From: an uncultured Candidatus Saccharibacteria bacterium | Lineage (GTDB): Bacteria; Patescibacteriota; Minisyncoccia; SW-4-49-11 | DNA: 64,000 bases | Direction of reading: 5' to 3' | Assembly (NCBI GenBank): GCA_964646465.1 | Contig: CAZYEN010000029.1 | Location: forward strand, 2,670 to 66,669 | In this document: piece after piece, positions 9,155 through 55,315 of the stretch | Numbering within the stretch: position 1 is the stretch's first letter | Layout: the number at the start of each line of letters is the position of its first letter | The notes under the pieces: generated by a model | What the model was told of the DNA's origin: nothing | The model's database searches: none | The model's input: only the letters and a program-made list of their open reading frames with translations | Program-made: the position numbers and the translations under genes

Positions 9155-10255
9155 ATGATTAGATTGTCTTTCCGCAAGTTTGCATTTATAGCTCAGTTGG
9201 TTGTTTTGACTTTAGTATATCTATTTTATATCATTTTTATTATACAACTATTAACAACAAAAGATTTAGGTAGATTAGAGTCTGCATGGTTAATAGTTTT
9301 AAGCGTTATAGGTCTATTTTGGATAAGTAATTTATTATTAAAAATTAAAATAGTTAAAAGACATATTCGCAGACTTTTTGTATTAAATATCAATTTACTA
9401 TTTAATAACCGTATAGTATGGTCTATTTTAGGTGTTTTTAATAAAAGATTTAAATTAATTAAAACTATATTTTTAGCATATCCAGCTAACCATAATTTCG
9501 CAAAAGAATATGTATTTGATAGTGTTTTAGAAGAGACTCGATGGTATCCTTGGTTTACAGGGTTTTTTATACAGAATGGAAAAGTCGGTTTAAAATTTGC
9601 TATATCTTCTACAGAGGATGACTTTAGAGATGAAAATAATTTAGATCAATTAAGAAGTGTTTGGTTAAAAATGAGTTATTTACAACATCTTTTAGAGTCT
9701 GACCAAATGACTTTTGCGGGTATTTTGCCAGGAGTATTTTATAAAAAGAATATTATTAACAATCTTCCGGTAGAGTTAGATAATACAGTTCAAGCTGTTA
9801 AGAAGTCAGTTTTATTAGTTATTGAAGAGTTGAACTTAAATAATAAAACGCCAATTATTGTGCTTGGAGGGAAGGGTTTTATAGGAGATAAATTTATTAC
9901 CGAGATGAGTGATAAAAAAATTTACTGTATTGATATAAAAGATAATAATTATAGTATAAATGAACTTATAAATTCTGCAAACGATAAAGTAATAATTCTC
10001 AATGTAGCAAGTCAGCGGGCGTTGCAAGATAACTTGATTTATTTTAATGAAAAAGTTATTATAATAAATGAAGTATATCCGGAACCTTCTACTGAAATAG
10101 TTAATCGAATAAAGTCTCAAGGTGGAACTATATTTCACATTGTGGGTGTTTCGGGAAGATCTTTCCCAAGATTTCCAAGAGCATATAGGAATGGGATACC
10201 TTGCTGTGCTAGTTGGAACAGTAAAAATACTGATGTTAAATTGATAAAAATATAA
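9155..10255 (+). CDS. Membrane-anchored protein with a C-terminal Rossmann-like (GxGxxG) domain, hypothetical
   Basis: N-terminal TM helices are followed by IIVLGGKGFIGDKF, a nucleotide-binding-like motif. Confidence 0.45.
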   Translation: MIRLSFRKFAFIAQLVVLTLVYLFYIIFIIQLLTTKDLGRLESAWLIVLSVIGLFWISNLLLKIKIVKRHIRRLFVLNINLLFNNRIVWSILGVFNKRFKLIKTIFLAYPANHNFAKEYVFDSVLEETRWYPWFTGFFIQNGKVGLKFAISSTEDDFRDENNLDQLRSVWLKMSYLQHLLESDQMTFAGILPGVFYKKNIINNLPVELDNTVQAVKKSVLLVIEELNLNNKTPIIVLGGKGFIGDKFITEMSDKKIYCIDIKDNNYSINELINSANDKVIILNVASQRALQDNLIYFNEKVIIINEVYPEPSTEIVNRIKSQGGTIFHIVGVSGRSFPRFPRAYRNGIPCCASWNSKNTDVKLIKI

Positions 10256-10268
10256 ATATAATACTGTA

Positions 10269-20158: not shown

Positions 20159-20773
20159 CTACAATCCCAAAATTTCTTTGACTTTCATTATGGTGACTTT
20201 TTCTTGGCGGGTGAGTTCGTCTAGGGAGTTTTGGATGGATTTGAGATTGGTTTTCATCTCGGGGATGATGACATATTCTAGGGCATTGACTCGTCTTCTG
20301 GTGGCTTCTATTTCCTCAGCTAATAGCCTGGCGGTGAATTCTATCTCAGCTAATTTTACTAACAGGGGTAGTATATTTTGGATTGTTAAGAGGGATTGGT
20401 CTAAATCTTTGGGTGTGCCTAAAGTTCCATATTGGAAGGGGTCTCCTTGTAAATGAGGGATTATATGTGGGATGGTCACTCCCATAATAGATTTTTTTTG
20501 TAATTCTAGATAGGTCTTGGCTTGGGAGAGATGGATTAGTTCATTGATAGCTTCGGTTGAAATTTTGGTCTGAGCGAATTGAAATAATTGTATTGCTTCT
20601 ACAATTTTGGGAGTTAATTCTCCTCTTAGCTTGATTACTTCTTGGATAATGGCTAAAAACTCTTGTATTAGTCCATCTCTTTTGTCGGTGAGCAAACCAT
20701 GTCCACGAGAAGCGGTTTTAATCTTCTTTTTGAGCTTGAGGGCTTCTTGTCTGGTCGGTTTGACGGCAGGCAT
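20159..20773 (-). CDS. atpD: V/A-type ATP synthase subunit D
   Basis: The N-terminus has a subunit D-like profile, the protein is 204 aa, and it occupies the last position of the operon. Confidence 0.85.
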   Translation of the reverse strand: MPAVKPTRQEALKLKKKIKTASRGHGLLTDKRDGLIQEFLAIIQEVIKLRGELTPKIVEAIQLFQFAQTKISTEAINELIHLSQAKTYLELQKKSIMGVTIPHIIPHLQGDPFQYGTLGTPKDLDQSLLTIQNILPLLVKLAEIEFTARLLAEEIEATRRRVNALEYVIIPEMKTNLKSIQNSLDELTRQEKVTIMKVKEILGL

Positions 20774-20775
20774 AT

Positions 20776-22161
20776 TTATTTGGAATACTTATCTATAAAT
20801 TCGGGCTTGATTTTCTTTAGTTCTTTTCTCGGTAATATTGATAATAATTCCCAAGACAAATCTAAGGTGTCTAGAATGGTTCGGTTTTCTCGTCTTCCTT
20901 GCCTTATATATCTACTCTCAAATGCTTCAGCGAATTTGATATAGGCTTTATCTGTCTCTGATAGGGCTGATTCTCCTAGGATTAAGGCTAATTCCTTGAT
21001 TTCCATACCTTTGGCATAGGAGGAGGCCATTTGCTCTTTGACGGCGGATAAATCTTCTCGGCTGTATTTTTTATCTACGCCAATTCGGGATAATGATCCA
21101 ATTGGTTGGATTGGAGGGTATATTCCTTGATTATGTAGCTCTCTATTGACCATAATTTGGCCTTCTGTGATGTATCCGGTTAAATCTGGTATTGGATGCT
21201 GCTTATCATCATCTGGCATTGTAAGGATAGGGATTTGGGTGAGTGACCCTGTGGATCCTTTGACTATTCCTGCTCTTTCATACAGGGTTGCAAGGTCGGT
21301 ATATAGATATCCTGGATATCCTCGTCTTCCTGGAATTTCTTTTCTAGAGGCTGAGACTTCTCGGAGGGCATCAGCATAATTGGTCATATCTGTTAGGATG
21401 ACTAATACATGCATATTCTTCTCAAAGGCTAAGTATTCTCCTAGAGTGAGAGCTAATCTTGGTAGGGTAATTCGCTCTACAATTGGGTCGCTAGCGGTGT
21501 TGATAAACAAAGCTGCTCTCTCCATCGCTCCGGTTTTTTCAAATGAGTCTATGAAGAATTGAGCTTCTTCAAAGGTGACTCCCATAGCTGCAAAGATTAC
21601 TACGAAAGGTTCTTCGGCTTTGACTAAATCTGTTCCATTTTGTAGGGCTACAACTTGGGCTTGTTCAGCAATTTGGGTGGCTATTTCAGAATGTGGTAGT
21701 CCTGACCCTGAGAAAATAGGTAGTTTTTGTCCTCTTACTAGGGCATTTAGTCCGTCTATGGTGGAGATTCCAGTTTGAATAAATTCACTAGGGAATTGTC
21801 GCATTCCTGGATTGATAGGGGAGCCATTGATGTCTAGATATTTCTCAGCGATTATTTCTGGTCCGCCGTCTTTGACTTTACCAGCTCCTGTGAATACTCG
21901 TCCTAACATACTGTCTGAGACTCCAAATTTGAGAGTTTCTCCTAAGAAGGCTATCTCGGCATTCTTTACATCTAATCCGTCGGTACTAGTGAATAACTGT
22001 ACTACAGCGGTGTCTTTGCTGGCTTCTAGTACTCGTCCTTGTCGGATTTGTCCTTTTGAGTCTCTAATTTCCACCATTTCCTCGAAGGCAACTTGTGGGA
22101 CTTTCTCAACTACGACTAGGGGTCCGGCAATTTCTTTGATTGTGTTATACCATTTCTTCAT
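20776..22161 (-). CDS. atpB: V/A-type ATP synthase subunit B
   Basis: A 461-aa non-catalytic B subunit, highly conserved throughout. Confidence 0.9.
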
Positions 22162-22170
22162 ATAATTATC

Positions 22171-24003
22171 CTAAATTCCACTTATTACTTTATTGATACC
22201 AAAGTCCTCGGATTTATCATTATCTTTGAGATTTTGAATTGTGCTTGAGATATTTTCTATTAGAGACACTATATTCTCAATGTCTGATTCTGGAGTATTT
22301 TTGAGTCTAGCAATTTCTTCACGAATTGGTAGGTCTAGGATATCATTTATCTCAATTTGAGGATTATTTTTGGCGGTTTCAGTGGCTTCATTATGGAAGG
22401 TCATCATTGCTTTTAGCATCAAATACATTTTACGAGTTGAGGCAAAGGCATCAATTTCATCAAAGGCATTTTGTTGTAGATAATCTTCTCGAAGTCCTCG
22501 AGCTGTATCTAGGAGTATTTTCTCAGAGGTAGATAGGGCGTCCATTCCTACTAATTTTATAATATCGTCTAGCTCATTTTCTTTCTGTAAAATTTGCATT
22601 GCTAAATCTCTTAGGTCTTTCCAATCTGAATCAGTTGCATTGATGAAATATTCTTCTACATTATCTTTGTATAGGCTATAACTATTGAGCCAATGAATAG
22701 ATGGAAAATGTTTTTTGGCGGCTAGAGATGCATCTAATCCCCAAAAAGCTTTGGTCACTTTAAGAGTGGCTTGGCTAACTGGTTCAGATAAGTCTCCACC
22801 TGGAGGTGATACGGCTGCAATGATAGTGGCTGACCCAATTCTTTCTTCTGTTCCTAATGTGCTGACTATTCCGGCTCTTTCATAAAAGGCTGAAATTCTA
22901 GATCCAAGATAGGCAGGATATCCTTCTTCTCCTGGCATTTCTTCTAGTCTTCCTGACATTTCTCGCATAGCTTCTGCCCAACGAGAGGTTGAATCGGCCA
23001 TCATAGCTACATTGTATCCCATATCTCGATAGTATTCAGCTAAGGTAATACCTGTATAAACTGAGGCTTCACGAGCTGCGATTGGCATATTGGAGGTATT
23101 GGCAACTAAAATCGTTCTTTCCATCAAAGGTCGTCCAGATTTTGGATCTTTAAGGTGTGGAAATTCTACCAATACATCGGTAATTTCATTTCCTCTCTCT
23201 CCACAACCTACATAAACTACAATATCTGCATCTGACCATTTTGCTAATTGATGTTGAATAACTGTTTTTCCAGCTCCGAATGGTCCTGGTACGGCGGCTG
23301 CTCCTCCTTTTGGAATTGGGAAGAATGTATCTATAATTCTTTGTTGAGTTATTAGTGGAGTAGTTGGCACTTGTTTTGCTTTGTATGGTCTTGGGGTTCT
23401 AACTGGCCATTTGTGCATTAATTGGACTGGGTTTTCTCCAATTGTAGCTATTGTCTCGGTAATTGTGAATTCTCCTGCCTTGATATCCTTAACTTCTCCC
23501 TCTACTCCAAATGGAACTAAAATCTTATGAGTAATTAACTCGGTCTCTTGTACTGTACCTAATATGTCTCCAGTGGTTACAGAGTCTCCTTTTTTGACTA
23601 ATGGCTTAAATTCCCATTTCATCTCTCTGTCTAGGCTAGGAGCGGTTAAACCTCTTGCAATATATTCAGCATTCAATCCTTGGGCAGCTGCTTTCTCAGC
23701 AATTACATTTAGAGGTCGTAAAATTCCATCAAATAATCCAGAGGTCAAAAGTCCTGGGCCTAATTCAATACTAAGGGGCTCTCCAGTTGAGACAACAGGC
23801 TCTCCTACGATTAGACCAGAGGTGTCCTCATAGACTTGAATGGAGGCTGTATCACCTTTTAATTCAATGATTTCCCCCATTAATTCTAGATTTCCAACTT
23901 TCACTAAATCATACATTTTAGCTCCTTTCATGGAGTCTGCGATAACTAGTGGTCCTGAGATTTTGATGATAATTCCGGTATTCATAGTAATTAGTTTAAT
24001 CAA
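22171..24003 (-). CDS. atpA: V/A-type ATP synthase catalytic subunit A
   Basis: Walker [10 protein letters not shown], 610 aa with the A-subunit-specific non-homologous insert, and the ERGNE region. Confidence 0.92.
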
Positions 24004-24323
24004 GAGTTGAATAATTTGTCTAGGCTCATACCTACGGCTTTCTCGGTCAGCTGCTTTAGCTCCTCAACAGAGTTGCTATCTGAGCTAATAGGTAGCTGTG
24101 ATATAGGTATATTGAGGGAATTGAGAACTTTTCTTTGCTTGGTAGATAATATAATGTTGGATGCTATAAAGATAATTGCGTACATCTCTGCATCTTTCTG
24201 GATATTAGCTATTATCTGATCTATTTCCAAGTCATCACTATTCAAAGTTTCAAAACCAAATAGTTTAAATAGTAGTGTTATTTCAGTATCAGCGATTAGA
24301 GCTGGCTTTTTATAGTCTATCAT
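24000..24323 (-). CDS. atpF: V/A-type ATP synthase subunit F
   Basis: A 107-aa ORF with the N-terminal LIADTEI..LF.L.G profile, in the F position of the operon. Confidence 0.7.
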
Positions 24324-25258
24324 ATATTGGAATAATCTATAAATCTTAATTGAGCCTGTTTAGAATCAATTTGTTTGGAGTGGTGTAGAATCAATAATTT
24401 AAAGTTAGTAATTGTATATTGGAGCCTCTCGGTATATTGTATAATTCTATCCCCAGACATCCCTGTAAATTGAGCTTTACTTAAGGCTTTGATCTCATTT
24501 TTAATAAGGGTGTTTTCAATGTTTATTGTGTTAATATCTACCGGAGCTAGATTTAGATATTGGCCTATATCTCCTAACACATCTCCAAAACCAAAGCTTT
24601 TTACAGCATTTATAGCCAGACTTCCCTGAATAGGTAATAAATGTCTTAATATATGTTCTTTTGACTGTCCTTTTTGAGTTCTTGTTAAAACATTGAGTAG
24701 GGTATAGCTATCTATTTTAGCTAATATAAAATCCTTCATTATATCACTACTTCTGTTTAGGTTTTCAAATAGTAGAGTTAAAAATATTTCTTCTAAATAA
24801 GAGATTAGGCTAAAGCTATCTTGTGAGTGAATAAGTTTTTCCTCTTTGGCTAATAATTTAGACTTGAACTGTGCAGAATAATATAGTTTATCAGAGACTT
24901 CAGTTAGAATTTGTTCAAACCCTTTCTCTCCAAGTGTCTCCCCATAAATAGTTTTATTAATAGATAGTGTTTTGAGTTTTTCAAAGTCTTGAGACATCTT
25001 GAGATAAATAAAGGGGGCAGAGTTCTCTGGCAAAAGGGATAGGATTTCTGTTATTTGTTGGTGATAATACTGATTGAGTTTATTTATTAAATTTTCTAAA
25101 TTGAGTTCGGCTAGACCAAAGGACTCTCGAATTGTATTTAGAATTACTTCGATACTATCAGTTACTAAAAGTGCTTTAGTCGTATTAGACTCAGGTAAAT
25201 AACTTAGTCTAGTTACGTATCTACTAGTTACACCAATTAGAGGGACTTGTAAACTCAT
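24320..25258 (-). CDS. atpC: V/A-type ATP synthase subunit C (d)
   Basis: A 312-aa helical protein in the operon position between E and F. Confidence 0.7.
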   Translation of the reverse strand: MSLQVPLIGVTSRYVTRLSYLPESNTTKALLVTDSIEVILNTIRESFGLAELNLENLINKLNQYYHQQITEILSLLPENSAPFIYLKMSQDFEKLKTLSINKTIYGETLGEKGFEQILTEVSDKLYYSAQFKSKLLAKEEKLIHSQDSFSLISYLEEIFLTLLFENLNRSSDIMKDFILAKIDSYTLLNVLTRTQKGQSKEHILRHLLPIQGSLAINAVKSFGFGDVLGDIGQYLNLAPVDINTINIENTLIKNEIKALSKAQFTGMSGDRIIQYTERLQYTITNFKLLILHHSKQIDSKQAQLRFIDYSNI

Positions 25259-25791
25259 ATTTCCTTCATTATGGCAGGTAGTGTTTTTTGTTTTACTTTA
25301 TCAAGAATATCCTCTACAGTAATTTCTAAATTCACCTCATCTAATTTAGCAGTGATGGCTCCTAAGTTAGAGCCTTGTTCTAGGTTATTTTTTTTATACC
25401 CTAGACTTTGAGTAATGCTTGCTAATTCTTTAGAGTAGTTGCCACTTATATTTAAAGTTGTAGAATTGGGGATATCTTTTAATATCTTTTGGATTGAGTC
25501 TTTTACAAAGTTTGAGTTTATAATCTCTGGTATTATATCCTTATAAATAGAGTTAAGTTGAGTTTGGATTGAATAACCGTAGTTAAACTTTTGAGTTTTA
25601 CTTTGTTGAAATTTATGGAAATTAATTTGAGTTGCCACTGCCTCGTCAATTTTCTCGGCATGTATTTTTTTAGTCTCAGATACGACTCTGTCCCAAGTGT
25701 TTTTAGTCTCTTTTAACTCTGCTTGATACTGAGCCTCTAACTTCTTAACATCTTTATTTATCTGAGATTGTATTGAATCTGCTAAAGTCAT
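25255..25791 (-). CDS. atpE: V/A-type ATP synthase subunit E (peripheral stalk)
   Basis: A 178-aa ORF with an N-terminal coiled coil and a globular C-terminus, correctly placed in the operon. Confidence 0.7.
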   Translation of the reverse strand: MTLADSIQSQINKDVKKLEAQYQAELKETKNTWDRVVSETKKIHAEKIDEAVATQINFHKFQQSKTQKFNYGYSIQTQLNSIYKDIIPEIINSNFVKDSIQKILKDIPNSTTLNISGNYSKELASITQSLGYKKNNLEQGSNLGAITAKLDEVNLEITVEDILDKVKQKTLPAIMKEI

Positions 25792-25792
25792 A

Positions 25793-26308
25793 TTATCCTA
25801 CTGATACTCCGTTAATAATCAAAATAGAAACTAGAAGTCCGAACACAGCGAAAGTCTCTACCAAGGCTGCTAGAATAATAACTTGTCCAATTTTAGATTT
25901 ATCTCTAGAAATTAACTGTACACCACTGGCGATTACATCTCCTTGATATTTACCTGAAGCTAAACAAGTAAGTCCGACTGGAATTCCTGCAAAAGCCAAA
26001 ATCATACCGTTCTGCCAACTTAAATTTGCAAATTCACCAGATAAAACTCCTGTGTTTTGTAAAATCAGCACAGCTGCCAAAAGTCCATAGATGGCCTGGG
26101 ATCCTGGAAGAGCAGACAACAAAAGCACATTCCCAAATTGAGAATCATCTTCCGCTACCAATCCTGCTCCGGTTTTTCCTGCTGTAGATACTCCAATAGA
26201 TGAACCAGCACCAGCCAATCCTGCTGCAAGGGCTGCTCCTAATACTGCTAAACTTACTCCTAATATTTCCATATTTTCAACTTTAACTCTTATATAAGGG
26301 ACACTCAT
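25793..26308 (-). CDS. atpK: V/A-type ATP synthase proteolipid subunit K (c)
   Basis: A Gly/Ala-rich four-helix proteolipid of 171 aa. Confidence 0.85.
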   Translation of the reverse strand: MSVPYIRVKVENMEILGVSLAVLGAALAAGLAGAGSSIGVSTAGKTGAGLVAEDDSQFGNVLLLSALPGSQAIYGLLAAVLILQNTGVLSGEFANLSWQNGMILAFAGIPVGLTCLASGKYQGDVIASGVQLISRDKSKIGQVIILAALVETFAVFGLLVSILIINGVSVG

Positions 26309-26376
26309 TGTTTACTGGTATCCTTTTCACTATACTCCTAATTTAACCTATGAATACAGTGAAAGAGATCACAGTA

Positions 26377-28413
26377 TTATTCAATAACACTGTACTCTTG
26401 GGATCTTGTTACTACTTGCAGTGGTCTTCCTCCAGATTGGAAGAATTTGCTGAAAAACTCTACAAAGTGTAGCCTACCAACATTGATGTAAGTACCTAAT
26501 ACATTAAGAGCTATATTAAATACATTTCCAGCTACGAATATAATTGTCATAATTATATATCCAATTATTACCCAAGCTCCACCTTTTTCTACAAACCCAC
26601 TTCCTGCTAAGTTTGCTAAAGTACCAACTACTCCTGCAATAATTCCAGTAGCAAGGCCTAGAGCTACCAACCTAGTATAGGATAGTATGTCAGATAGATA
26701 TCCTACCACTCCAAAAAAGACATCGTAAGCTCCTTTTCCAAATTTAGCAAAAATGGATTTCATTTCTCTTCCCAAAAGATATATCATCACAAATATATAG
26801 GCTATATATACATATAGTAGGGGATCAATTAATAATTTTAGGCCATCTCCTAACAACTCCATATTAATTAAAATTAGGAATATTCCGAATATTAGAGCTC
26901 CGGCCCATAGAATTGAATCTAGACTGGCATCTAAAAAAGATTTAGAGTTATAAGCTTGAACTATATTGAGCACCAAACCAAATAGTAAATGTACTATTCC
27001 AAGAACGATTGTGAATCCCATTAAAGCGATAACACTATCCATTGGGTTAAGAATCTGCATCTTTTGTAAGAGAGGAATCAAACCAATGTTGATTAGAAAT
27101 TTCATATGTGGTGAGGCTGTAGCAGGATCTACAACATCTGGTGTAATCCCAAACCAACTACCAAATAAAGCTCCAATAATCAATGTAGAGATAGATGCAA
27201 TAAATACAACTGCAAAAATATCTCTAATACCTGATTTTAATCTAGGATTAATTAATCCAAGTCCTGTCAAAATAATCAAAATAAGAGCATACCCTGCCTC
27301 AGATAAAGCCAAACCGAACATAAAGGTGAAGAAAATTGCAATAGACAGGGTAGGGTCAATTTTACCGGCTTGTGGATACCCCATGATTTTTGTGACTGTC
27401 TCAAAATGTCTAATTATTGGAAGGTTCTTCAGTATCACTGGACTTGATTCAAAGTTTGCTGGTAACTCAACTACCTTGCCACTATCAGTGATTTTAGATA
27501 CTGATTGTCTGACAGAATCAAATTGTTCTTCATCTACCCATAATTGTATTGATGAGTTTTCTTCGGATTCTGGATTAAATGAATGTAAATAAGAAATTAA
27601 ATTCAGGTGTGAGTTTAGCACGTCAACTAATATAGCTAAATCCTTGAATTTGACGGGCGATTTTTTAAGTTCTCGTCTTAATTTAGTTAATAACTTATTA
27701 TTTGAGTTAAGCTCTTGTTTACTATTGTGATAAATGTCATAGAAAGATCCACTGACTTCGGCTGGGAATTGTATTAATGTTGCTTGATTCTGTATTATGT
27801 CAATGGCAATTTTAACTTGATTCTTCGGTAGTGCTAAAATATATACGTAATCAGTTCCAAGTTTTTTTACGGATTCCAGTACCATAGGAGATACCGCATG
27901 CTCTAATTGTTCTGCTATATAATGTGCTCTAGACTCGTCTATCAAAAATGGTAAAAAGCTAATGTATGAGTATGATTTAAAGATATTTATTTCAATATCT
28001 TTTAATGGTTCAGATTTAGCAATAATGTCCTGTAGAACCTCCTGACGTATTAGTAGGTCATCTTTTAGCTCTGCCTTCTCTACAATCTCCTTAGCCTTTA
28101 TAATAATATTATCTTTTTCTTTATCATAATGTTCAAACACATCTTCAGTTATACTAAATCTATCATCTAGTACGGCAGAAAGCATTGACTTTTTTTCTAA
28201 ATGGTATTCTTTATATACATCTAGAGCTTTATTGACTATATCTAAGTTTTCTAAAATATCTTCTTGTATAGCATGATGTTTCTTAGAAAGTGGTGTTCTT
28301 TCTACTTTTTCTATTATTTCACCAACTTGTTGTTTTTGAAAATATGATAACAGTTCGAGTTGATGTTTGTTAGGAACTGTAACTTGGATTAGTTTAGATG
28401 CTTTAACTCCCAT
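26377..28413 (-). CDS. atpI: V/A-type ATP synthase subunit I (a)
   Basis: A 678-aa ORF with a soluble N-terminal half and a C-terminal half of 7-8 TM helices, placed second in the operon. Confidence 0.85.
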   Translation of the reverse strand: MGVKASKLIQVTVPNKHQLELLSYFQKQQVGEIIEKVERTPLSKKHHAIQEDILENLDIVNKALDVYKEYHLEKKSMLSAVLDDRFSITEDVFEHYDKEKDNIIIKAKEIVEKAELKDDLLIRQEVLQDIIAKSEPLKDIEINIFKSYSYISFLPFLIDESRAHYIAEQLEHAVSPMVLESVKKLGTDYVYILALPKNQVKIAIDIIQNQATLIQFPAEVSGSFYDIYHNSKQELNSNNKLLTKLRRELKKSPVKFKDLAILVDVLNSHLNLISYLHSFNPESEENSSIQLWVDEEQFDSVRQSVSKITDSGKVVELPANFESSPVILKNLPIIRHFETVTKIMGYPQAGKIDPTLSIAIFFTFMFGLALSEAGYALILIILTGLGLINPRLKSGIRDIFAVVFIASISTLIIGALFGSWFGITPDVVDPATASPHMKFLINIGLIPLLQKMQILNPMDSVIALMGFTIVLGIVHLLFGLVLNIVQAYNSKSFLDASLDSILWAGALIFGIFLILINMELLGDGLKLLIDPLLYVYIAYIFVMIYLLGREMKSIFAKFGKGAYDVFFGVVGYLSDILSYTRLVALGLATGIIAGVVGTLANLAGSGFVEKGGAWVIIGYIIMTIIFVAGNVFNIALNVLGTYINVGRLHFVEFFSKFFQSGGRPLQVVTRSQEYSVIE

Positions 28414-36790: not shown

Positions 36791-37225
36791 TTATGGGTTA
36801 ATATTAATAATTCTCTCATTTGAATTAATAACTTCAAATTCGATTTTAGTATTAGGGATGTTCTTCCAGAGATTTGGAGTTTTGCTAGCCCATTCGATCA
36901 ACAAAATATTTTTAGTGTTTTGAATCATATCCATAATACCTAAATCTAAAACCTCCCATTCTTGATTCAATCTGTATAAATCAAGATGATAAATTTTATA
37001 GTCAGAATCTGGTATAGAATATGGCTTCATGATTACGAAGGTAGGGCTTGTGACGGGTTGGACTACTCCTAAGCCAGCTAAAAACCCTTGGCTAAAAGTT
37101 GTTTTGCCTCCCCCCAATTCACCCTCTAGTAATACGACATTAGGTTTTTTGTTGTCTAAAACATCTTTAGCTATATCTTTAGCAAGATTTTTAGTTTCAA
37201 CTATAGATTTTGAAATTATTCGCAT
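36791..37225 (-). CDS. tsaE: tRNA t6A biosynthesis ATPase TsaE (YjeE)
   Basis: The P-loop LEGELGGGKTTFSQGF in a ~144-aa protein. Confidence 0.8.
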   Translation of the reverse strand: MRIISKSIVETKNLAKDIAKDVLDNKKPNVVLLEGELGGGKTTFSQGFLAGLGVVQPVTSPTFVIMKPYSIPDSDYKIYHLDLYRLNQEWEVLDLGIMDMIQNTKNILLIEWASKTPNLWKNIPNTKIEFEVINSNERIININP

Positions 37226-37227
37226 AT

Positions 37228-40227
37228 TTATAATACTTTTATTCCCAAGACTCTTTCTAGTTCTGCAAAATCAGTAGTATGGTCTAATACCTTTAGGATA
37301 CCAGAAACTTCTAAAGTTGTCATCCCTTCCTCAATAGCTAGGCTCTTGATATTAGCAGTTGAGGCATTAGATATAATAGTTTCTTTGATTCTGGGTGTCA
37401 GTACTAATACCTCAAATATAGCAGTGATGCCATTATATCCATTTGGATGCTCGGGGCTAGACTTAGACTCAAGAATAGTATCAGGTATTATACTATGATA
37501 TCTCTCTGGTAATTTAGATTTGATTATATCTTTTTGTTCATCAGAAAGGGTAATAGGGGTTGCATTAGTAGGGTCTATTTTTCTAACAATTCTCTGAGCA
37601 ATAGTCACATTTACAAAAGTAGCTATTTCAGACAGTCCCACTCCCAAGTCATATAATCTTAAAATAGCCGAAGCAGCATCATTGGTATGTAGAGTAGACA
37701 ATAATAAATGTCCAGTAGCTGCTGTTTGCATCGCTACCTTAGCAGTCTCTCCATCTCTTATCTCCCCGATTAAGACAATGTTTGGATTTTGTCTTAAAAG
37801 AGCTCTGATAGCATTAGGGAAACTATAACCAGTCTCTTCATTGATACTGGTCTGTAAAATTCCAGATAATTTATATTCAATTGGATCTTCTATAGTGATA
37901 ATTTTGACTCCAGGTTGATTTAGCGTGTTGAGGGTGGCGTAAAGAGTTGTAGACTTACCAGCACTGGTAGGCCCGGTTACTAAAATTAGTCCAGTAGTTG
38001 CTTTTAACTGTTCCTGTAAAAGTTTAATATTATACTCATCCATGCCGAGGTCTTGTAATTTTATATTAGTAATATCTGATCTTAGTATTCTAAGTACAAT
38101 AGTCTGTCCATAACCTCCTGGAATGATAGAAACTCTGACATCAAAGTTTTTGTCTGTAAAAATAGTGAATCTACCTTCTTGGATTTTATTAGCAATATCT
38201 AAAGGTAGCCCAGTAAAAATTTTAATTTGGCTTAAAATTTGAGGATAGAGTGATTTCGGAACACGAGCTTCCTCATACAATACTCCATCAATCCGAAATC
38301 TAATTATAAGATCAGACATATCTGGCTCAAGGTGAATGTCGGTGGCTCTTTTAGTTAATGCAGCATTAGTAATAGCTGTAAGTTGGTCGTTAATAGACAT
38401 CGATTCAGATATATGGTCAATTTCGGGTAGAGAATCACCAGATTTGTTAATATGAATTCCTCGAGATAAGGCTGACGTCAAAGTAGTCTCATAAATTTCA
38501 TCTACATAAGATATATCTCCCGCCACAGATAAAACCTCTTCAAGGGAAGTCTCTCCATCTACTGCATGTAATACTCCATCTTGAAACAGAGTAACCATAC
38601 CATTTTCAATAGCTTTTCTAAAGATTTTAAATTCTGGAGTATTGTTAATAATTAAATCTTTAATATTGTCACGGGTTTCAAATAATTCATATAAAGCAAG
38701 TCTGCCCTTATAACCTATACCATAACACTTAAAGCAACCTTTTGGACGATATAATCTAGTAATATCTTGAGGTATGGTTAAGTTAGATTTAGGCGATATT
38801 ATAGCCAAGGCTTTTTTTATATAATCTAATTCATTTTCTTCTGGAATATACTCTTCCTTACAATCACATAGCCTCCTTACTAATCTCTGAGCTACAAAAA
38901 GATTCATTGCCGAGATTATTAGTTGGGGGCTAGAACCAAACTCTTTTAATCTAGTAATAATTCCTACCGAATCATTTGTATGAATAGTAGAGAAAACTAA
39001 ATGTCCTGTAATAGCTGCGTTAACAGATATACTAGCTGTTTCATTATCTCTAATTTCTCCAACCATAATTACATCAGGGTCTTGTCTTACAATAGCTTTT
39101 AGTCCATTGGCAAAAGTATATCCTTTTTTATTATCTACTTGAGTTTGATTAATGTTGTGTAATCTATATTCAATAGGATCCTCAATAGTAATTATATTCG
39201 TTTCACTCCGATTAACATAATTAAGAAAAGAGTATAGACTAGTAGTTTTACCTGAACCTGTAGGCCCAGATAACATTATCATTCCTTGAGGTTTGTCTAG
39301 ATTTCTAACTATAATATCTAAAAAAGATTCACGAATGCCAAAATCATAAATATCTAAACTATGAACTGCTGTATTAAGCAGTCTCATAACGATAATCTCT
39401 CCAGTTTTACTAGGTAAGATAGAAACTCTAACGTCAATAGATTGCTTTATATTCCCATTACTCTCTTTGATGGTAATAGAAAATCGACCATCTTGAGCAA
39501 TAGTTTTAATATTTAAAACTAGAGAGGCTAAATTCTTGACTCTTGAAATTAATAATTTATACATTTCATTATCAAAGTTCAAAATATCTTGTAAAACTCC
39601 ATCTATACGGTATCTAAGACGAGTAATATCTCCTTTTGGCTCAATATGTATATCACTAGCAAGTGCTGTTATAGCCCCAGCACAAATTATTTGAGTTAAT
39701 TCAGAAGTGTCAATAGCGTCAATTTTACGAGCAAAATCTTCTAATGAGACTACTCCTTGATTAAACTCATCGATCATTGTAAGAGGAATTATTAATTTAT
39801 CTTTAACAATTTCACTTCTCTCCTGTAAAAATTCATAGGAATTATAACCCTTCTCTAAACTATACTGTGAAACTAGATACAAATCCAGTCCATACTTATT
39901 TTGATACAACCTTTGCAATATTGTTTTAGCTATAGGATTATCTAGATCTTGTAGCGCTATCTTAAGATTTAGTCCAGATCTTTGAAAAATTATCATCTTA
40001 GCTTTTTGGGCCTGTTCTTTAGTTAGAATTTTAAGAGCATCTGGATTAATTGGAATAAATTGCAAGTTAAGATAAGGTATACCAAGACTATCTGCTAAAT
40101 TTTGAGTATTAGATTCTTCTTCTTTTTTACGGATAGTAGATAAATTCATATCTACCACATTGTCAGAATGTAATTTATCTCGAAAGCTTTGCCGATTGGA
40201 TTTTTTTTGTTTTAATATTGTGCTCAT
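37228..40227 (-). CDS. pilB: Tandem-fused double GspE/PilB-type secretion ATPase (type IV pilus/T2SS assembly ATPase x2)
   Basis: Two complete units are present. Each has a GspE N-domain-like region (ASDIHIEP), a Walker A (GPTGSGKTT and GPTSAGKST), an Asp box (VGEIRD and IGEIRDGETA) and a His box (GHLVFSTIHTND and GHLLLSTLHTND). A CxxC...CxxC tetracysteine motif sits between them. Confidence 0.85.
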   Translation of the reverse strand: MSTILKQKKSNRQSFRDKLHSDNVVDMNLSTIRKKEEESNTQNLADSLGIPYLNLQFIPINPDALKILTKEQAQKAKMIIFQRSGLNLKIALQDLDNPIAKTILQRLYQNKYGLDLYLVSQYSLEKGYNSYEFLQERSEIVKDKLIIPLTMIDEFNQGVVSLEDFARKIDAIDTSELTQIICAGAITALASDIHIEPKGDITRLRYRIDGVLQDILNFDNEMYKLLISRVKNLASLVLNIKTIAQDGRFSITIKESNGNIKQSIDVRVSILPSKTGEIIVMRLLNTAVHSLDIYDFGIRESFLDIIVRNLDKPQGMIMLSGPTGSGKTTSLYSFLNYVNRSETNIITIEDPIEYRLHNINQTQVDNKKGYTFANGLKAIVRQDPDVIMVGEIRDNETASISVNAAITGHLVFSTIHTNDSVGIITRLKEFGSSPQLIISAMNLFVAQRLVRRLCDCKEEYIPEENELDYIKKALAIISPKSNLTIPQDITRLYRPKGCFKCYGIGYKGRLALYELFETRDNIKDLIINNTPEFKIFRKAIENGMVTLFQDGVLHAVDGETSLEEVLSVAGDISYVDEIYETTLTSALSRGIHINKSGDSLPEIDHISESMSINDQLTAITNAALTKRATDIHLEPDMSDLIIRFRIDGVLYEEARVPKSLYPQILSQIKIFTGLPLDIANKIQEGRFTIFTDKNFDVRVSIIPGGYGQTIVLRILRSDITNIKLQDLGMDEYNIKLLQEQLKATTGLILVTGPTSAGKSTTLYATLNTLNQPGVKIITIEDPIEYKLSGILQTSINEETGYSFPNAIRALLRQNPNIVLIGEIRDGETAKVAMQTAATGHLLLSTLHTNDAASAILRLYDLGVGLSEIATFVNVTIAQRIVRKIDPTNATPITLSDEQKDIIKSKLPERYHSIIPDTILESKSSPEHPNGYNGITAIFEVLVLTPRIKETIISNASTANIKSLAIEEGMTTLEVSGILKVLDHTTDFAELERVLGIKVL

Positions 40228-52345: not shown

Positions 52346-55315
52346 ATGTATAATCATAGAATTATTGAACAGAAATGGGTTCAAAAGTGGTCCGAGGGAT
52401 TTGTAGATTACACAATTAATCCTCAAACATCTGAGGATAAAAAATATATTTTAGTTGAATTCCCTTTCCCTTCAGGAGCTGGACTTCATGTAGGACATAT
52501 CAGAAGTTATGTAGCTCAGGACATTAAAGCTAGAATATATAGAATGCAAGGAAATCAGGTGTTATATCCCATAGGTTGGGATGCTTTTGGTTTGCCAACA
52601 GAAAATTATGCTATTAAAAATAATATATCCCCAGCAGTAGCAACAGCAGATAATATAAAGAATTTTAAAAAACAATTAGCAGTCCTAGGGTTGTCTTTTG
52701 ATTGGAGTCGTGAAATCAATACCACTGACCCTAAATATTATAAATGGACTCAATGGATTTGGCTACAAATGTTTAAGTCAGGCCTTGCCTATCAAGATAC
52801 CACTCAAGTTTGGTGGTGTGAAGAATTAAAGACTGTCTTAGCTAATGAAGAGGTGATTGATGGTAAATCAGAGCGGGGAGGACATCCTTGTATTAGAGTT
52901 CCACTTCGGCAATGGATGTTAGCTATTACTAAGTATGCAGATAGATTAGACCGAGATTTAGAAAAAGTAGATTATTTACCAATTATCAAAACTCAACAAA
53001 GAAATTGGATAGGACGTAGTGAGGGGTTTGAGTTAAAATTTCAAGTTCAAGATATAGATCAGAATATAGAAATATTCACCACTAGAATCGATACTATTTT
53101 TGGAGTGACTTTTTTAGTTTTAGCTCCGGAACATCCACTTTTAGATAAAATTGTAAAAGCAGAATATAAGAATCAAGTTAAAGAGTATCAAGAGCAAACA
53201 AAATCTAAAAGTGATCTTGACAGACAACAAAGTAAAGATAAAACCGGGGTATTTACTGGAGCTTATGCTATACATCCACTAACAGAAGAACTAATCCCAA
53301 TTTGGATAGCTGATTATGTATTGGCAAGTTATGGTACAGGGGCTATAATGGCGGTCCCTGCCCACGATGAGAGAGATCAGGAATTTGCCAAAGAGTTTGG
53401 ATTATCTATTAAGCAGGTAGTTGCTCAATATACTACTCTTACAGGGCAAGATGCTCCAAAGAGTGATGAAAATATTGTGGAATTTGATGCTGCAACGGTA
53501 ATTATTAAACATTGGGTAGAAGAGTTATATTATGTCGTTCAATTTAGTAATAAAGCACAAGGTTTTGTTGGGGGGCATGTTGAATTAGGTGAGACAACAG
53601 AACAAACCGCAATTCGTGAGACGGCAGAAGAATCTGGATATATAGATATTAAAAATATTGAGCAGCTTATAGCACATGCATATGGCCGTGGATATAAGCC
53701 ACGTAAATCAAGAGAGGAATTATGCCATGATTCTCTTTACTTAATACATTTGAAAAGTGGTGAGAGGGTTGATGTTAATGATCATGAGATTAAAAATGGT
53801 GACTGGCTGAGTGCAGAAGAAATTGTAAGATCACAATTATTTTCTGATGGACACCGTTTATTTTTTGAATATTATCTCAATCAAAAACCATTTACAGGGT
53901 ATGGAAAACTTGTTAACTCAGGAGAATTTGATGGACTATTTTCAGAAGAGGCAAAGAAATCTATTATTACAATATTAGAAGAGCAAAATATCGGACACAG
54001 AAAAGTCCAATATAAACTTCGTGATTGGGTTTTCTCCAGACAAAGATATTGGGGAGAACCATTTCCTATTGTTTGGATAATTGAAGAGCATTATAAAAAA
54101 ATATCAGGAGAGATTGCTAGATTTTTACCTAGTCAAGCAGTAACTAGAGAAATAGAGGGGGTATTGCAGTATGCTGTCCCAATTGCAGTTTCAGATTTGC
54201 CATTAGAATTACCAGAAGTAGATTCTTATGTCCCTCAAGGATTAGGTGAAAGCCCATTAGCTCAAGCTACAGATTGGTTAGAAGTTTGGTATAATGTCCA
54301 AACTGGCCAAGCCATATCCAGGCAAAATCACAAGCCAGATAGTAATTGGGTAGAAGCCTTACGAGAAACCGATACAATGCCTAATTGGGCAGGAAGTTCT
54401 TGGTATTATCTTAGATATATTGATCCTAATAATGATGAGAAATTAGCTGACCCAGAATTATTAAAAAATTGGCTACCAGTATACTTATATAATGGAGGAA
54501 TGGAGCATGTTACATTACATCTATTATATTCAAGATTTTGGCATAAATTTTTATATGATATTGGAGTAGTCCATACCATAGAACCATATCAGACCAGAAT
54601 TAAGCACGGTATGATTTTAGCTGAAGGTGGTGTAAAAATGTCCAAGTCCAAAGGGAATACTGTTGACCCGATTGAAATGGTAGAGTCATTTGGAGCAGAT
54701 TCTCTGAGAGTTTATGAAATGTTTATGGGGCCTTATGATGAAGCCATAGCTTGGGACACTAAAGGTTTAATTGGATGTAGTCGCTTTTTAAAAAGAATCT
54801 ATCAATGGGTAAATGATATGAAAGAGCAAAAATTACAACCCAATAATGATAAAGCTAATCTAGACTATGAGACACATTCATTAATCAAGAAAATTACTCA
54901 AGATATAGATAATCAGAAATATAATACTTGTGTTAGTAGTTTGATGGAATATCTTAATTTATACAATACTCAAGATATAGGTATAGATAATATTAAAATA
55001 TATATTAAATTATTAGCTCCATTTGCCCCACATTTAACAGAAGAATTATGGGAAATAGTAGGGGAGAAGAATACAGTACATAAGTCCATATGGCCAATTT
55101 ATGATGATACTAAATTAGTCCAAAGCCAGTTAGATTATCAAATCCATATCAATGGTAAAATGCGAGATATCATCACAGTATCGAATGCATCCAACGAGGA
55201 AGAAATTCAAATACAAGCCCTCAACTCAGACAAAGTAAAACATATTCTGTCAGACAATATTCCAAAAAAAATTATAATAAATCAAGATAAACAAATAGTA
55301 ATAATTATTGTATAG
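52346..55315 (+). CDS. leuS: Leucyl-tRNA synthetase with a ~155-aa MutT-like Nudix domain inserted after the CP1 editing domain
   Basis: HVGH, the CP1 region TTRIDT...GTGAIMAVPAHDERD and KMSKS are all present. Between GLSIKQVV and LVNSGEFDGL there is an extra segment with the Nudix box GGHVELGETTEQTAIRETAEESGY. Confidence 0.9.
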   Translation: MYNHRIIEQKWVQKWSEGFVDYTINPQTSEDKKYILVEFPFPSGAGLHVGHIRSYVAQDIKARIYRMQGNQVLYPIGWDAFGLPTENYAIKNNISPAVATADNIKNFKKQLAVLGLSFDWSREINTTDPKYYKWTQWIWLQMFKSGLAYQDTTQVWWCEELKTVLANEEVIDGKSERGGHPCIRVPLRQWMLAITKYADRLDRDLEKVDYLPIIKTQQRNWIGRSEGFELKFQVQDIDQNIEIFTTRIDTIFGVTFLVLAPEHPLLDKIVKAEYKNQVKEYQEQTKSKSDLDRQQSKDKTGVFTGAYAIHPLTEELIPIWIADYVLASYGTGAIMAVPAHDERDQEFAKEFGLSIKQVVAQYTTLTGQDAPKSDENIVEFDAATVIIKHWVEELYYVVQFSNKAQGFVGGHVELGETTEQTAIRETAEESGYIDIKNIEQLIAHAYGRGYKPRKSREELCHDSLYLIHLKSGERVDVNDHEIKNGDWLSAEEIVRSQLFSDGHRLFFEYYLNQKPFTGYGKLVNSGEFDGLFSEEAKKSIITILEEQNIGHRKVQYKLRDWVFSRQRYWGEPFPIVWIIEEHYKKISGEIARFLPSQAVTREIEGVLQYAVPIAVSDLPLELPEVDSYVPQGLGESPLAQATDWLEVWYNVQTGQAISRQNHKPDSNWVEALRETDTMPNWAGSSWYYLRYIDPNNDEKLADPELLKNWLPVYLYNGGMEHVTLHLLYSRFWHKFLYDIGVVHTIEPYQTRIKHGMILAEGGVKMSKSKGNTVDPIEMVESFGADSLRVYEMFMGPYDEAIAWDTKGLIGCSRFLKRIYQWVNDMKEQKLQPNNDKANLDYETHSLIKKITQDIDNQKYNTCVSSLMEYLNLYNTQDIGIDNIKIYIKLLAPFAPHLTEELWEIVGEKNTVHKSIWPIYDDTKLVQSQLDYQIHINGKMRDIITVSNASNEEEIQIQALNSDKVKHILSDNIPKKIIINQDKQIVIIIV

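What the first reader, a model, noticed from the sequence alone, without database searches (positions are those of the whole stretch)
37228..40227. Tandem-fused double PilB/GspE secretion ATPase in one 999-aa polypeptide
Two full ATPase units sit in tandem on one chain. Each has its own N-domain, Walker A, Asp box and His box, and a tetracysteine motif lies after unit 1. PilB/GspE enzymes are normally homohexamers of single units. A covalent dimer would form a trimer of dimers, which fits the C2-symmetric pseudo-hexamers seen in structures. It would also allow the two halves to specialise: Walker A is GSGKTT in the first unit and SAGKST in the second. No pilM, pilN, pilO or pilC genes are adjacent; the neighbours are tsaE and pgk.
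Basis: seen in the sequence. Interest (0 to 1): 0.6.

Follow-up and report, generated by a model that had tools for sequence, protein, structure and literature searches.

The report
Natural two-in-one pilus motor ATPase
This gene really encodes two complete, apparently active copies of a pilus-assembly motor ATPase joined in one protein; the fusion is conserved in a group of ultra-small bacteria, where the same conserved chromosomal site holds one-, two- or three-copy versions, and I found no report of it in the papers I could search.

Summary
Window 37228-40227 (-) is one uninterrupted 999-aa ORF with two full PilB/GspE-type ATPase units that are 37% identical to each other.

It is not a sequencing artefact. 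More than 130 full-length relatives of about 1000 aa (40-91% identity) come from independent Patescibacteria assemblies (Minisyncoccia, Parcubacteria, Moranbacteria).

Both units keep every catalytic residue. Both are under equal purifying selection (dN/dS 0.066 and 0.067). Neither is PilT-like or degenerate.

- Only unit 1 has the N1 domain.
- The tetracysteine lies inside unit 1, not after it.
- Unit 2 lost its own tetracysteine in this clade only.
- The Walker A difference is not a degeneration.
- A trimer of dimers gives C3 chain symmetry, not C2.

New findings: the protein belongs to a patescibacterial "orphan" PilB paralogue, separated from pilus-operon PilBs in 197 of 200 bootstraps. 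This paralogue sits at a conserved tsaE/ruvB housekeeping and DNA-repair locus, with no pilus genes within 10 kb. That locus carries single, tandem or triple-unit versions. The tandem form arose at least three times there.

Most likely the protein forms a PilB-like six-unit ring from three chains. The ring geometry and the partner machine are inferred, not shown.

The parts
37228..40227 (-). Whole 999-aa tandem PilB/GspE-type ATPase gene (stop codon 37228-37230)
   Evidence: ORF list and translation. Two T2SSE stretches in Pfam. Full-length homologues at 40-91% identity.
39808..40137 (-). N1 domain (aa 31-140, GspE-N1/MshEN type), present once per chain
   Evidence: Pfam PF05157 at aa 48-126, 25.1 bits against a cutoff of 23.1. 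The AF2 model shows a folded alpha/beta domain with pLDDT 81-89. It is less conserved than the ATPase cores: mean pairwise identity 0.33, dN/dS 0.156.
39328..39705 (-). Unit 1 N2 domain (aa 175-300), with invariant arginines R266 and R281
   Evidence: Invariant columns in alignment A1. R266 and R281 have the same 15-residue spacing as R271 and R286 of Geobacter PilB, which contact the Asp box and the nucleotide (PMC5424180).
38518..39327 (-). Unit 1 C-terminal ATPase domain (aa 301-570). Walker A is at aa 320-327 (nt 39247-39270). It also holds the Asp box, Walker B E390, His box H408/H415 and the tetracysteine C453/C455/C497/C500 (nt 38728-38871).
   Evidence: Foldseek matches to PilB/PilF/GspE cores, TM up to 0.89 when normalised by target length.
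38416..38517 (-). Inter-unit segment (aa 571-604). It contains a conserved helix with the motif Y..(D/E)(D/E).Y(D/E)..L...LSRG(I/V), then a short strand. By position it corresponds to the N-terminal extension found in single-unit, N1-less orthologues.
   Evidence: Y578 is invariant and L586 is at least 90% conserved. Sequence logo listing. The AF2 model has helix 572-586 and strand 589-591 at pLDDT 61-77. Spacers of 38-47 aa occur in all independent tandems and in the triple.
38038..38415 (-). Unit 2 N2 domain (aa 605-730), with invariant arginines R697 and R712
37231..38037 (-). Unit 2 C-terminal ATPase domain (aa 731-999). Walker A GPTSAGKS is at aa 751-758 (nt 37954-37977). It holds Asp box E779/E783, Walker B E821 and His box H839/H846. 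The tetracysteine is lost in this clade (KIDPTNA...HPNGYNG).
   Evidence: dN/dS is 0.067, equal to unit 1.
36791..37225 (-). tsaE, immediately downstream on the same strand. It is the conserved synteny marker of this ATPase locus across Patescibacteria.
   Evidence: Pfam TsaE, E 1e-32. tsaE lies next to the orthologous ATPase in almost all related loci.

Best explanation
The gene encodes a natural covalent tandem of two catalytically competent PilB/GspE-type type IV filament assembly ATPase units. The layout is N1-N2-CTD, then a spacer of about 35 aa, then N2-CTD.

It is a member of a Patescibacteria-specific 'orphan' PilB paralogue. This paralogue is encoded away from the pilus operons, at a conserved tsaE/ruvB housekeeping and DNA-repair locus. 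Internal tandem duplication at that locus has repeatedly produced two-unit chains, and once a three-unit chain.

Shown:
- The fusion is real and conserved.
- Both units are PilB/GspE type.
- Both keep all catalytic residues, nucleotide-sensing residues and pore-loop acidic residues.
- Both units are equally constrained.
- Unit 2 in this clade has lost its zinc site.
- Only unit 1 carries N1.
- The locus is orthologous to loci with single-unit and triple-unit versions.

Inferred:
- Three chains assemble into one PilB-like ring of six units in alternating order U1-U2. The ring would present three N1 domains instead of six.
- The ring hydrolyses ATP in all six sites.
- It drives a PilC-type platform, encoded elsewhere, to polymerise a type IV filament. 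This could be a pilus or a competence pseudopilus for DNA uptake.
For: Real and conserved:
- It is one ORF.
- All of the best 120 hits are about 1000 aa at 95-100% query coverage, except one 763-aa partial protein (P0029, 76% coverage) and the 1460-aa three-unit P0028, and they come from many independent assemblies.
- 132 of the 269 fetched proteins have two units.
- About 14 cluster representatives at 50% identity have two units, out of 1.84 billion representatives searched.
- dN/dS is 0.066 for unit 1, 0.067 for unit 2 and 0.21 across the junction.

Both units competent:
- These residues are invariant across 31 diverse tandems: Walker A K326/K757; Asp box E348, E352/E779, E783; Walker B E390/E821; His box H408, H415/H839, H846; N2 arginines R266, R281/R697, R712; T406/T837; R450/R881.
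- They correspond to the functional residues of Geobacter PilB (PMC5424180).
- The pore-loop residues D393/D824 and E826 are at least 90% conserved.

Type:
- Each unit scores highest for GspE/PilB and low for PilT.
- The best solved relatives are PilB, GspE and PilF.

Orphan paralogue:
- In a neighbour-joining tree of unit cores, pilus-operon PilBs (followed by pilT) separate from orphan singles plus all patescibacterial tandem units in 197 of 200 bootstraps.

Synteny:
- tsaE lies next to the ATPase in Saccharibacteria, Doudnabacteria, Staskawicz-, Nealson- and Wildermuthbacteria and Moranbacteria, and ruvB in all of these except the Wildermuthbacteria locus L026.
- None of these loci has a prepilin motif within 10 kb. 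Two genuine pilus operons, used as controls, have three each.

Unit number:
- The same locus holds a 431-aa single unit (L022), tandems, and the 1460-aa triple P0028, whose three units are 45-58% identical with all motifs intact.
- Independent duplications: P0122 (200/200) and P0132 (200/200).
- Unit counts of 1, 2 and 3 are all divisors of six, as a single six-unit ring would require (inference).
Against: - No oligomer was modelled or measured. The AF2 monomer has good domain confidence (pLDDT 82.8) but pTM of only 0.50, and no coordinates or PAE were available, so the inter-unit geometry is unknown.
- No platform, pilin or alignment genes lie in the 64-kb window or near any orthologue, so the partner machine is unidentified.
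- Each unit alone falls below the curated PilB and GspE equivalog cutoffs.
- Whether the same genome also has a pilus-operon PilB could not be tested.
- The link to DNA uptake rests only on neighbourhood: ruvA/B/C, polA, fpg, and a ComEA-like HhH-LTD protein in three loci, all below curated cutoffs. In very small genomes this may be plain housekeeping synteny.
- Monophyly of unit 2 in the main family has only moderate support (133/200).
Confidence: 0.6

Rival explanations
1. It is an artefact: two adjacent genes (pilB-pilB or pilB-pilT) were merged by a sequencing or assembly error, or the two units are made as separate proteins from an internal start.
For: Tandem ATPase genes such as pilB-pilT are common; they appear in many control loci. 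One 416-aa 'unit 2 only' protein (P0134) exists in the databases.
Against: The uninterrupted ORF of about 1000 aa recurs in more than 130 clusters from JGI, ENA, NCBI and Logan assemblies. The junction is under purifying selection. P0134 is only a contig-end fragment. Met609 is not conserved (Ala in 13 of 31 sequences) and has no Shine-Dalgarno upstream. Unit 2 is not PilT-like.
Confidence: 0.02
2. One unit is a catalytically silent scaffold or regulatory pseudo-ATPase, as in F1 alpha/beta or dynein. The ring would then have only three working sites.
For: In the window's clade, unit 2 has lost the tetracysteine zinc site, and zinc coordination is essential in EpsE (PMC5061722, title). Unit 2's C-terminal subdomain is less conserved than unit 1's (0.44 versus 0.57). 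An unrelated non-patescibacterial tandem, P0145, does have a degenerate first unit.
Against: All Walker A, Asp box, Walker B, His box and arginine residues are invariant in both units. Core identity is equal (0.658 versus 0.655) and dN/dS is equal. Most family members keep the unit 2 cysteines.
Confidence: 0.12
3. The tandem forms two stacked hexameric rings (six chains), like NSF/p97, ClpB or KaiC, rather than one ring of three chains.
For: Many tandem P-loop ATPases stack in this way (general knowledge). The AF2 pTM of 0.50 does not fix the inter-unit geometry.
Against: I know of no stacked-ring structure for a PilB/GspE/PilT-type ATPase, and the PDB hits retrieved here are ordinary single-unit chains. 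The spacer is only 35-47 aa and corresponds to the native N-terminal extension of single-unit orthologues. A three-unit relative exists at the same locus, which would require a triple stack. Unit numbers 1, 2 and 3 all divide six.
Confidence: 0.15
4. The orphan ATPase does not power a type IV filament at all. It acts in DNA uptake or recombination, or another process linked to its conserved ruv/polA/tsaE neighbourhood, without a PilC platform.
For: It is never next to pilus genes. It lies directly upstream of ruvB in Saccharibacteria, Moranbacteria and several Parcubacteria lineages, among ruvA, ruvC, yebC, polA and fpg, and ComEA-like HhH-LTD genes lie nearby in L019, L022 and L026.
Against: The acidic pore-loop residues are retained in both units; PMC5424180 describes the conserved, negatively charged PilB pore and proposes that PilC sits in it. 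No DNA-binding domain is present. In small genomes most neighbours are housekeeping genes. In the window's clade the link to ruvB is already broken.
Confidence: 0.15

Closest known systems
PilB, the type IVa pilus extension ATPase (Geobacter metallireducens PilB 5TSG/5TSH/6OLJ; Thermus PilF 5OIU/5IT5)
   Same: Each unit has the same N2D + CTD fold (TM 0.87-0.89 normalised by target length, 35-42% identity). The Walker A, Asp box, atypical Walker B, His box, N2 arginines and pore-loop acidic residues are the same. Unit 1 has the N1 domain and the tetracysteine.
   Different: There are two units on one chain. There is one N1 domain per two units. Unit 2 has lost the zinc site in this clade. The gene is not in a pilus operon. 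Each unit falls below the TIGR02538 cutoff. The protein forms a separate clade from pilus-operon PilBs, including patescibacterial ones (197/200).
GspE/EpsE, the type II secretion ATPase (Vibrio 1P9R, 4KSR, 4PHT)
   Same: It is the best NCBIfam model for both units. It shares the core fold and the tetracysteine CM subdomain.
   Different: No gsp genes are present, and Patescibacteria are reported to lack a Gram-negative envelope (PMC6744442). Scores are below the equivalog cutoff. Natural GspE is single-unit; hexamers were obtained only by engineered Hcp1 fusion (the molecule name of 4KSR/4KSS).
ComGA, the competence pseudopilus ATPase of Gram-positive bacteria
   Same: It is a PilB-family ATPase lacking the N1 domain, like unit 2 and like the single-unit N1-less orthologues of 431-450 aa. 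A possible link to DNA uptake comes from the neighbourhood.
   Different: Each unit scores 219-236 bits against a cutoff of 300. There is no comG operon. ComGA is single-unit.
Two cooperating extension motors, PilB and TfpB, in Acinetobacter baylyi (PMC8213720)
   Same: Two diverged PilB-type paralogues serve extension in one organism.
   Different: There they are separate genes and proteins. Here the two paralogous units are covalently joined in a fixed 1:1 ratio.
Covalently linked or tandem ring ATPases (engineered single-chain ClpX; natural KaiC, NSF/p97; F1 alpha3beta3) - comparison from general knowledge
   Same: The ring is built from fewer chains or from alternating non-identical units. 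This allows subunit-specific mutation.
   Different: These belong to different ATPase superfamilies. Most natural tandems stack as two rings or have one silent unit. Here both units look active, and a single ring is the more likely form.

Membership tests
PilB/GspE-type type IV filament assembly ATPase (Pfam T2SSE, PilT/VirB11-like superfamily) | Two-domain core (N2D + RecA-like CTD with a C-terminal subdomain) | tested here: met
   Two T2SSE stretches. The AF2 model has pLDDT 82.8. Foldseek against PilF, PilB and GspE gives TM up to 0.89 normalised by target length, E 1e-42.
PilB/GspE-type type IV filament assembly ATPase (Pfam T2SSE, PilT/VirB11-like superfamily) | Walker A, Asp box, atypical Walker B, His box and N2 arginines, in each unit | tested here: met
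   All are present in both units and invariant in 31 diverse tandems. They were mapped onto Geobacter PilB residues.
PilB/GspE-type type IV filament assembly ATPase (Pfam T2SSE, PilT/VirB11-like superfamily) | Tetracysteine zinc-binding motif in the CTD | tested here: inconclusive
   Met in unit 1 (C453, C455, C497, C500, all invariant). Not met in unit 2 of the window's clade. Unit 2 of the other clade keeps it.
PilB/GspE-type type IV filament assembly ATPase (Pfam T2SSE, PilT/VirB11-like superfamily) | N-terminal N1 (GspE-N1/MshEN) domain | tested here: met
   PF05157 at aa 48-126, 25.1 bits against a cutoff of 23.1. It occurs once per chain, on unit 1 only. The c-di-GMP-binding motif was not examined.
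PilB (TIGR02538) / GspE (TIGR02533) equivalogs | Score above the curated cutoff for one unit | tested here: not met
   Unit 1 scores 427.6 for PilB and 427.6 for GspE. Unit 2 scores 344.4 and 367.5. The cutoffs are 675.65 and 630.25. The whole protein passes only because the two units add up.
PilB/GspE-type type IV filament assembly ATPase (Pfam T2SSE, PilT/VirB11-like superfamily) | Encoded with the platform (PilC/GspF), the alignment proteins (PilM/N/O or GspL/M) and prepilins | tested here: not met
   No such Pfam hit among the ORFs scanned in the 64-kb window (about 15 small ORFs were not scanned), and no prepilin motif anywhere in it. No prepilin motif within 10 kb of any orthologue and no T2SSF or PilM/N/O family among the precomputed gene calls of the loci fetched by the look-up of encoding contigs. 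Control pilus operons L004 and L005 show three prepilins each. Many type IVa systems are multi-locus (PMC6668835), so this does not exclude the function.
PilB/GspE-type type IV filament assembly ATPase (Pfam T2SSE, PilT/VirB11-like superfamily) | Assembles as a six-unit ring | not testable with these tools
   Only a monomer could be predicted (pTM 0.50) and no coordinates were returned.
PilT/PilU retraction ATPase (TIGR01420) | Score above the cutoff of 319.1; short CTD without the zinc subdomain | tested here: not met
   The units score 165.9 and 174.4. Both have the long PilB-type C-terminal subdomain.
ComGA competence ATPase (NF041000) | Score above the cutoff of 300 for one unit; comG operon context | tested here: not met
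   The units score 235.7 and 218.8. There is no com operon.
Patescibacterial orphan PilB paralogue at the tsaE/ruvB locus (group defined in this work) | Phylogenetic placement with the tsaE/ruvB-flanked single-unit ATPases, apart from pilus-operon PilBs | tested here: met
   NJ tree of 65 unit cores over 393 columns; the split has 197/200 bootstrap support.
Patescibacterial orphan PilB paralogue at the tsaE/ruvB locus (group defined in this work) | tsaE adjacent; ruvB immediately downstream | tested here: inconclusive
   tsaE is adjacent in the window. ruvB is absent from the window. In the window's clade the order is pgk | ATPase-tsaE-pfkB-femAB. ruvB follows the ATPase in the other tandem clade and in most single-unit loci.

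The most novel reading that the evidence does not exclude
Patescibacteria carry a previously unrecognised extra PilB-like motor, separate from their pilus operons and anchored at the ruv/polA/tsaE locus. It works in DNA uptake or another pilus-independent process. Its ring is repeatedly rebuilt from covalent dimers or trimers. In that case reduced chain symmetry (C3 from tandems, C2 from triples) and a halved number of N1 domains would be functionally selected, not neutral. This would make these proteins natural 'single-chain' versions of the PilB motor.
Probability: 0.2. Interest if true: 0.75.

Novelty: new variant of a known kind. Interest (0 to 1): 0.55.

Why it matters
PilB-family motors are thought to work as homohexamers that cycle through C2-symmetric states. 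How many subunits must be active, and whether the C3 and C6 states matter, is still debated (PMC5424180, PMC6858323).

A natural chain with two active units, or three in a relative, fixes the order of units in the ring. Unit-specific mutations become possible, for example E390Q versus E821Q, or removing N1. This has not, to my knowledge, been done for this motor family.

The finding also points to an overlooked orphan PilB paralogue. It is conserved across Patescibacteria next to tsaE and ruvB, and its role in these host-dependent, naturally competent bacteria is unknown.

The repeated, independent origin of the tandem at one locus suggests a selective advantage rather than an accident.

Tried and rejected
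- **Artefact or split gene:** rejected.
- **PilB-PilT fusion:** rejected.
- **Degenerate half:** no support within the patescibacterial family. It is true only for the unrelated P0145.
- **Genome-contig scan with alignment A1:** Only L001 was a tandem. These loci later proved useful as single-unit orthologues and pilus-operon controls.
- **Literature:** eight full-text searches and reading of the CPR protein-family paper, the PilB review, the type IV filament evolution paper and the TM7x pili paper. I found no mention of a tandem PilB or of the orphan locus. Absence from this library is not proof of novelty.
- **Foldseek against afdb50:** the library was not available.
- **Inter-unit geometry:** the predicted model's coordinates and PAE are not exposed, so this could not be read.
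- **The DHH neighbour:** only weakly NrnA-like. The HhH-LTD neighbour is ComEA-like but below cutoff. I treat both as weak context only.


Full report
**1. The observation**

Window 37228-40227 (-) is one ATG-to-stop ORF of 999 codons. Pfam finds two T2SSE stretches (E 1e-208) and an N-terminal MshEN/GspE-N1 domain at aa 48-126. NCBIfam's best models are GspE and PilB, each with two matched stretches.

The two halves align over 396 residues at 37% identity, E 6e-81. An HMM I built from the unit cores finds two complete units and no other member of the family in the window.

Unit 1 has Walker A GPTGSGKT, an Asp box, Walker B and His box, and the tetracysteine C453/C455/C497/C500. Unit 2 has Walker A GPTSAGKS and the same Asp box, Walker B and His box, but no cysteine motif.

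Downstream on the same strand lie tsaE, pfkB, femAB, a VanW protein and cysS. Upstream and divergent lie pgk, glycosyltransferases, LytR and an S41 protease. The rest of the window has a V/A-type ATPase operon, recA, aminoacyl-tRNA synthetases and so on. I found no pilC, pilM/N/O or pilT among the ORFs scanned (about 15 small ORFs were left unscanned) and no prepilin motif anywhere in the window.

**2. Not an artefact**

- Nearly all of the best 120 database hits are about 1000 aa long and cover 95-100% of the query at 40-91% identity. The exceptions are a 763-aa partial protein (P0029, 76% coverage) and the 1460-aa three-unit P0028. The hits come from JGI, ENA, NCBI and Logan assemblies, and are named Minisyncoccia, Parcubacteria, Moranbacteria or Patescibacteria where a name exists.
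- Of the 269 proteins fetched, 132 have two units and one has three.
- In the exhaustive search of 1.84 billion representatives at 50% identity, about 14 representatives are two-unit proteins. The remainder of the top 150 are ordinary PilBs of about 550 aa.
- Against a relative at 83% identity (L081), dN/dS is 0.066 for unit 1, 0.067 for unit 2, 0.16 for N1 and 0.21 for the junction.
- The only 'unit 2 alone' protein, P0134, is a contig-end fragment.
- Met609 is not conserved and has no Shine-Dalgarno sequence upstream.

**3. Both units are PilB/GspE type and look active**

Scanned separately, unit 1 scores 427.6 bits for both PilB and GspE. Unit 2 scores 367.5 for GspE and 344.4 for PilB. The PilT family scores only 166 and 174 against a cutoff of 319. 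Each unit is below the curated PilB and GspE equivalog cutoffs, so 'member of the equivalog' is not met, although the type is clear.

The best solved relatives are Myxococcus and Geobacter PilB, Vibrio GspE and Thermus PilF. The AF2 model has mean pLDDT 82.8 and pTM 0.50. It matches PilF, PilB and GspE cores with TM up to 0.89 normalised by target length. No solved chain contains two units.

In an alignment of 31 diverse tandems, these positions are invariant in both units:
- Walker A Lys: K326 / K757
- Asp box Glu: E348, E352 / E779, E783
- Walker B Glu: E390 / E821
- His box: H408, H415 / H839, H846
- N2 arginines: R266, R281 / R697, R712
- T406 / T837 and R450 / R881

These correspond to R271, R286, E357, T411, H413, H420 and R455 of Geobacter PilB, which bind nucleotide and transmit its state between packing units (PMC5424180). 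The pore-loop acidic residues D393/D824 and E826 are at least 90% conserved. Core identity is the same in both units, 0.658 and 0.655.

The Walker A variant SAGKS is a clade feature that fits the P-loop consensus. Most relatives have GSGKT in both units.

Real asymmetries do exist:
- There is one N1 domain per chain.
- In the window's clade only, unit 2 has lost the zinc-binding cysteines. The Moranbacteria-type clade keeps them.
- Zinc coordination is essential in EpsE (PMC5061722), so this loss is a genuine, clade-specific divergence.

**4. What the gene is in evolutionary terms**

Gene neighbourhoods of relatives show that the ATPase is not in a pilus operon in any of the loci fetched. They also show that it occupies a conserved site.

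- *Window clade:* pgk or def | tandem, tsaE, pfkB, femAB.
- *Other tandem clade and the triple-unit P0028:* polA, tsaE | DHH, tandem, ruvB, a bPH_2 protein, an LTD/PKD protein, then yebC and ruvC further on.
- *Single-unit PilB-like genes between tsaE and ruvB,* found by tblastn over the fetched loci:
  - Saccharibacteria: L009, L011, L014, L015 (L009 shows ruvB only, not tsaE); also L006, recorded only as 'Patescibacteria group', which clusters with them
  - Doudnabacteria: L010
  - Staskawiczbacteria: L019
  - Nealsonbacteria: L022
  - Wildermuthbacteria: L026
  - UBA6220: L027
  - Five of these (L014, L019, L022, L026, L027) are N1-less, 431-450 aa.
- *The Saccharibacteria locus L011* reads ruvA, fpg..., polA, tsaE | ATPase, ruvB, yebC..., ruvC.

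None of these loci has a prepilin motif within 10 kb. Two genuine patescibacterial pilus operons (L004, L005, where PilB is followed by PilT) have three each.

A neighbour-joining tree of 65 unit cores separates pilus-operon PilBs, including the patescibacterial ones, from the orphan singles plus all patescibacterial tandem units in 197 of 200 bootstraps.

Within the orphan group:
- The main tandem family has its unit 2 sequences together (133/200). This is consistent with one old duplication and fusion.
- P0122 has sister units (200/200) and nests among N1-less Parcubacteria singles (187/200).
- P0132 has sister units (200/200) and nests among Saccharibacteria singles (199/200).
- Both sit at the same locus, so they are independent duplications.
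- The triple P0028 has units 45-58% identical, with every motif intact in all three.
- The inter-unit spacer is always 38-47 aa. By position it corresponds to the N-terminal extension of the N1-less singles.

In short, the window protein is an N1-bearing unit joined end to end with an N1-less unit.

**5. How it most likely works**

*Shown:* two competent PilB-type units on one chain.

*Inferred:* three chains form one six-unit ring with alternating U1 and U2 and three N1 domains. The ring acts on a PilC-type platform encoded elsewhere.

Arguments for a single ring:
- The family is known as single-ring hexamers built from N2D(n)-CTD(n+1) packing units (PMC5424180).
- The spacer is short and native.
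- Unit numbers at this locus are 1, 2 and 3, all divisors of six.

A ring of three tandem chains has C3 chain symmetry. The C2 PilB states would pair a U1 with a U2, which is possible because both are competent. The chain pattern also matches the C3 OCOCOC class seen in this family (PMC6858323). The triple-unit form would give C2 chain symmetry.

I could not test any of this. No multimer prediction, coordinates or PAE were available.

The partner machine is unknown. The conserved position next to ruvB, among ruvA/C, polA and fpg, suggests a link to DNA uptake or recombination. So do the ComEA-like HhH-LTD genes in L019, L022 and L026. This context is weak, however, because these genomes are small, and in the window's clade only the tsaE link remains.

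**6. Comparison and novelty**

Each unit works like, and is structurally, a PilB/GspE assembly ATPase. The protein as a whole differs in four ways: the covalent tandem, the single N1, the orphan location and the distinct clade.

I found no description of a tandem PilB/GspE or of this orphan locus in eight full-text searches and five relevant papers. Databases simply label these proteins 'GspE/PulE family' or 'PilB'.

I rate it a new variant of a known kind, of moderate interest. It is not a new mechanism. It is a natural 'linked-subunit' PilB that would allow unit-specific experiments, and it is a pointer to an unstudied patescibacterial paralogue.

Noticed in passing
window 52346-55315 (+): The 989-aa leucyl-tRNA synthetase carries a NUDIX domain (PF00293, aa 402-503, E 2e-12) inserted after the editing domain. 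A LeuRS in a related locus (L092, 931 aa) shows no such hit.
   Followed up: no
L087 10001-14383 (P0028, JGI contig Ga0248662_100121): A 1460-aa protein with three complete PilB-type units sits at the same tsaE/DHH locus. The units are 45-58% identical and all catalytic motifs are intact in all three. Two such chains would make six units. It is known from a single contig only.
   Followed up: partly
L093 10001-13144 (P0145, NCBI GCA_964384625.1): In a non-patescibacterial genome (sulfatase-rich context), a 1047-aa protein combines N-terminal T2SSF (platform) domain hits with two ATPase units. The first unit lacks the Walker A, Asp box and His box. This is an independent tandem with a degenerate half.
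   Followed up: partly
L006, L009-L011, L014, L015, L019, L022, L026, L027 (ATPase at about 10001-11600 in each): A single-unit PilB-like gene sits beside tsaE and/or ruvB, away from pilins, across several Patescibacteria lineages. These include Saccharibacteria, where published work on TM7x describes only PilB1 and PilB2 in pilus loci. Whether TM7x itself has this third gene was not checked.
   Followed up: partly
window 20159-28413 (-): A V/A-type ATPase operon (subunits I, c, F, A, B and D, plus two unassigned ORFs) in this 32% GC patescibacterial genome.
   Followed up: no
window 61006-63429 (+): An 807-aa protein with TrwB/TraG-type coupling-protein and HerA/DUF87 domains. It may be part of the patescibacterial type IV secretion or conjugation-like system.
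   Followed up: no
window 14774-16474 (+): A 566-aa protein with a ricin-type beta-trefoil lectin domain. It may be a surface or host-binding factor.
   Followed up: no
P0095: One tandem homologue is labelled 'Candidatus Bathyarchaeia archaeon' in NCBI. Given the otherwise patescibacterial distribution, this is probably a binning error.
   Followed up: no
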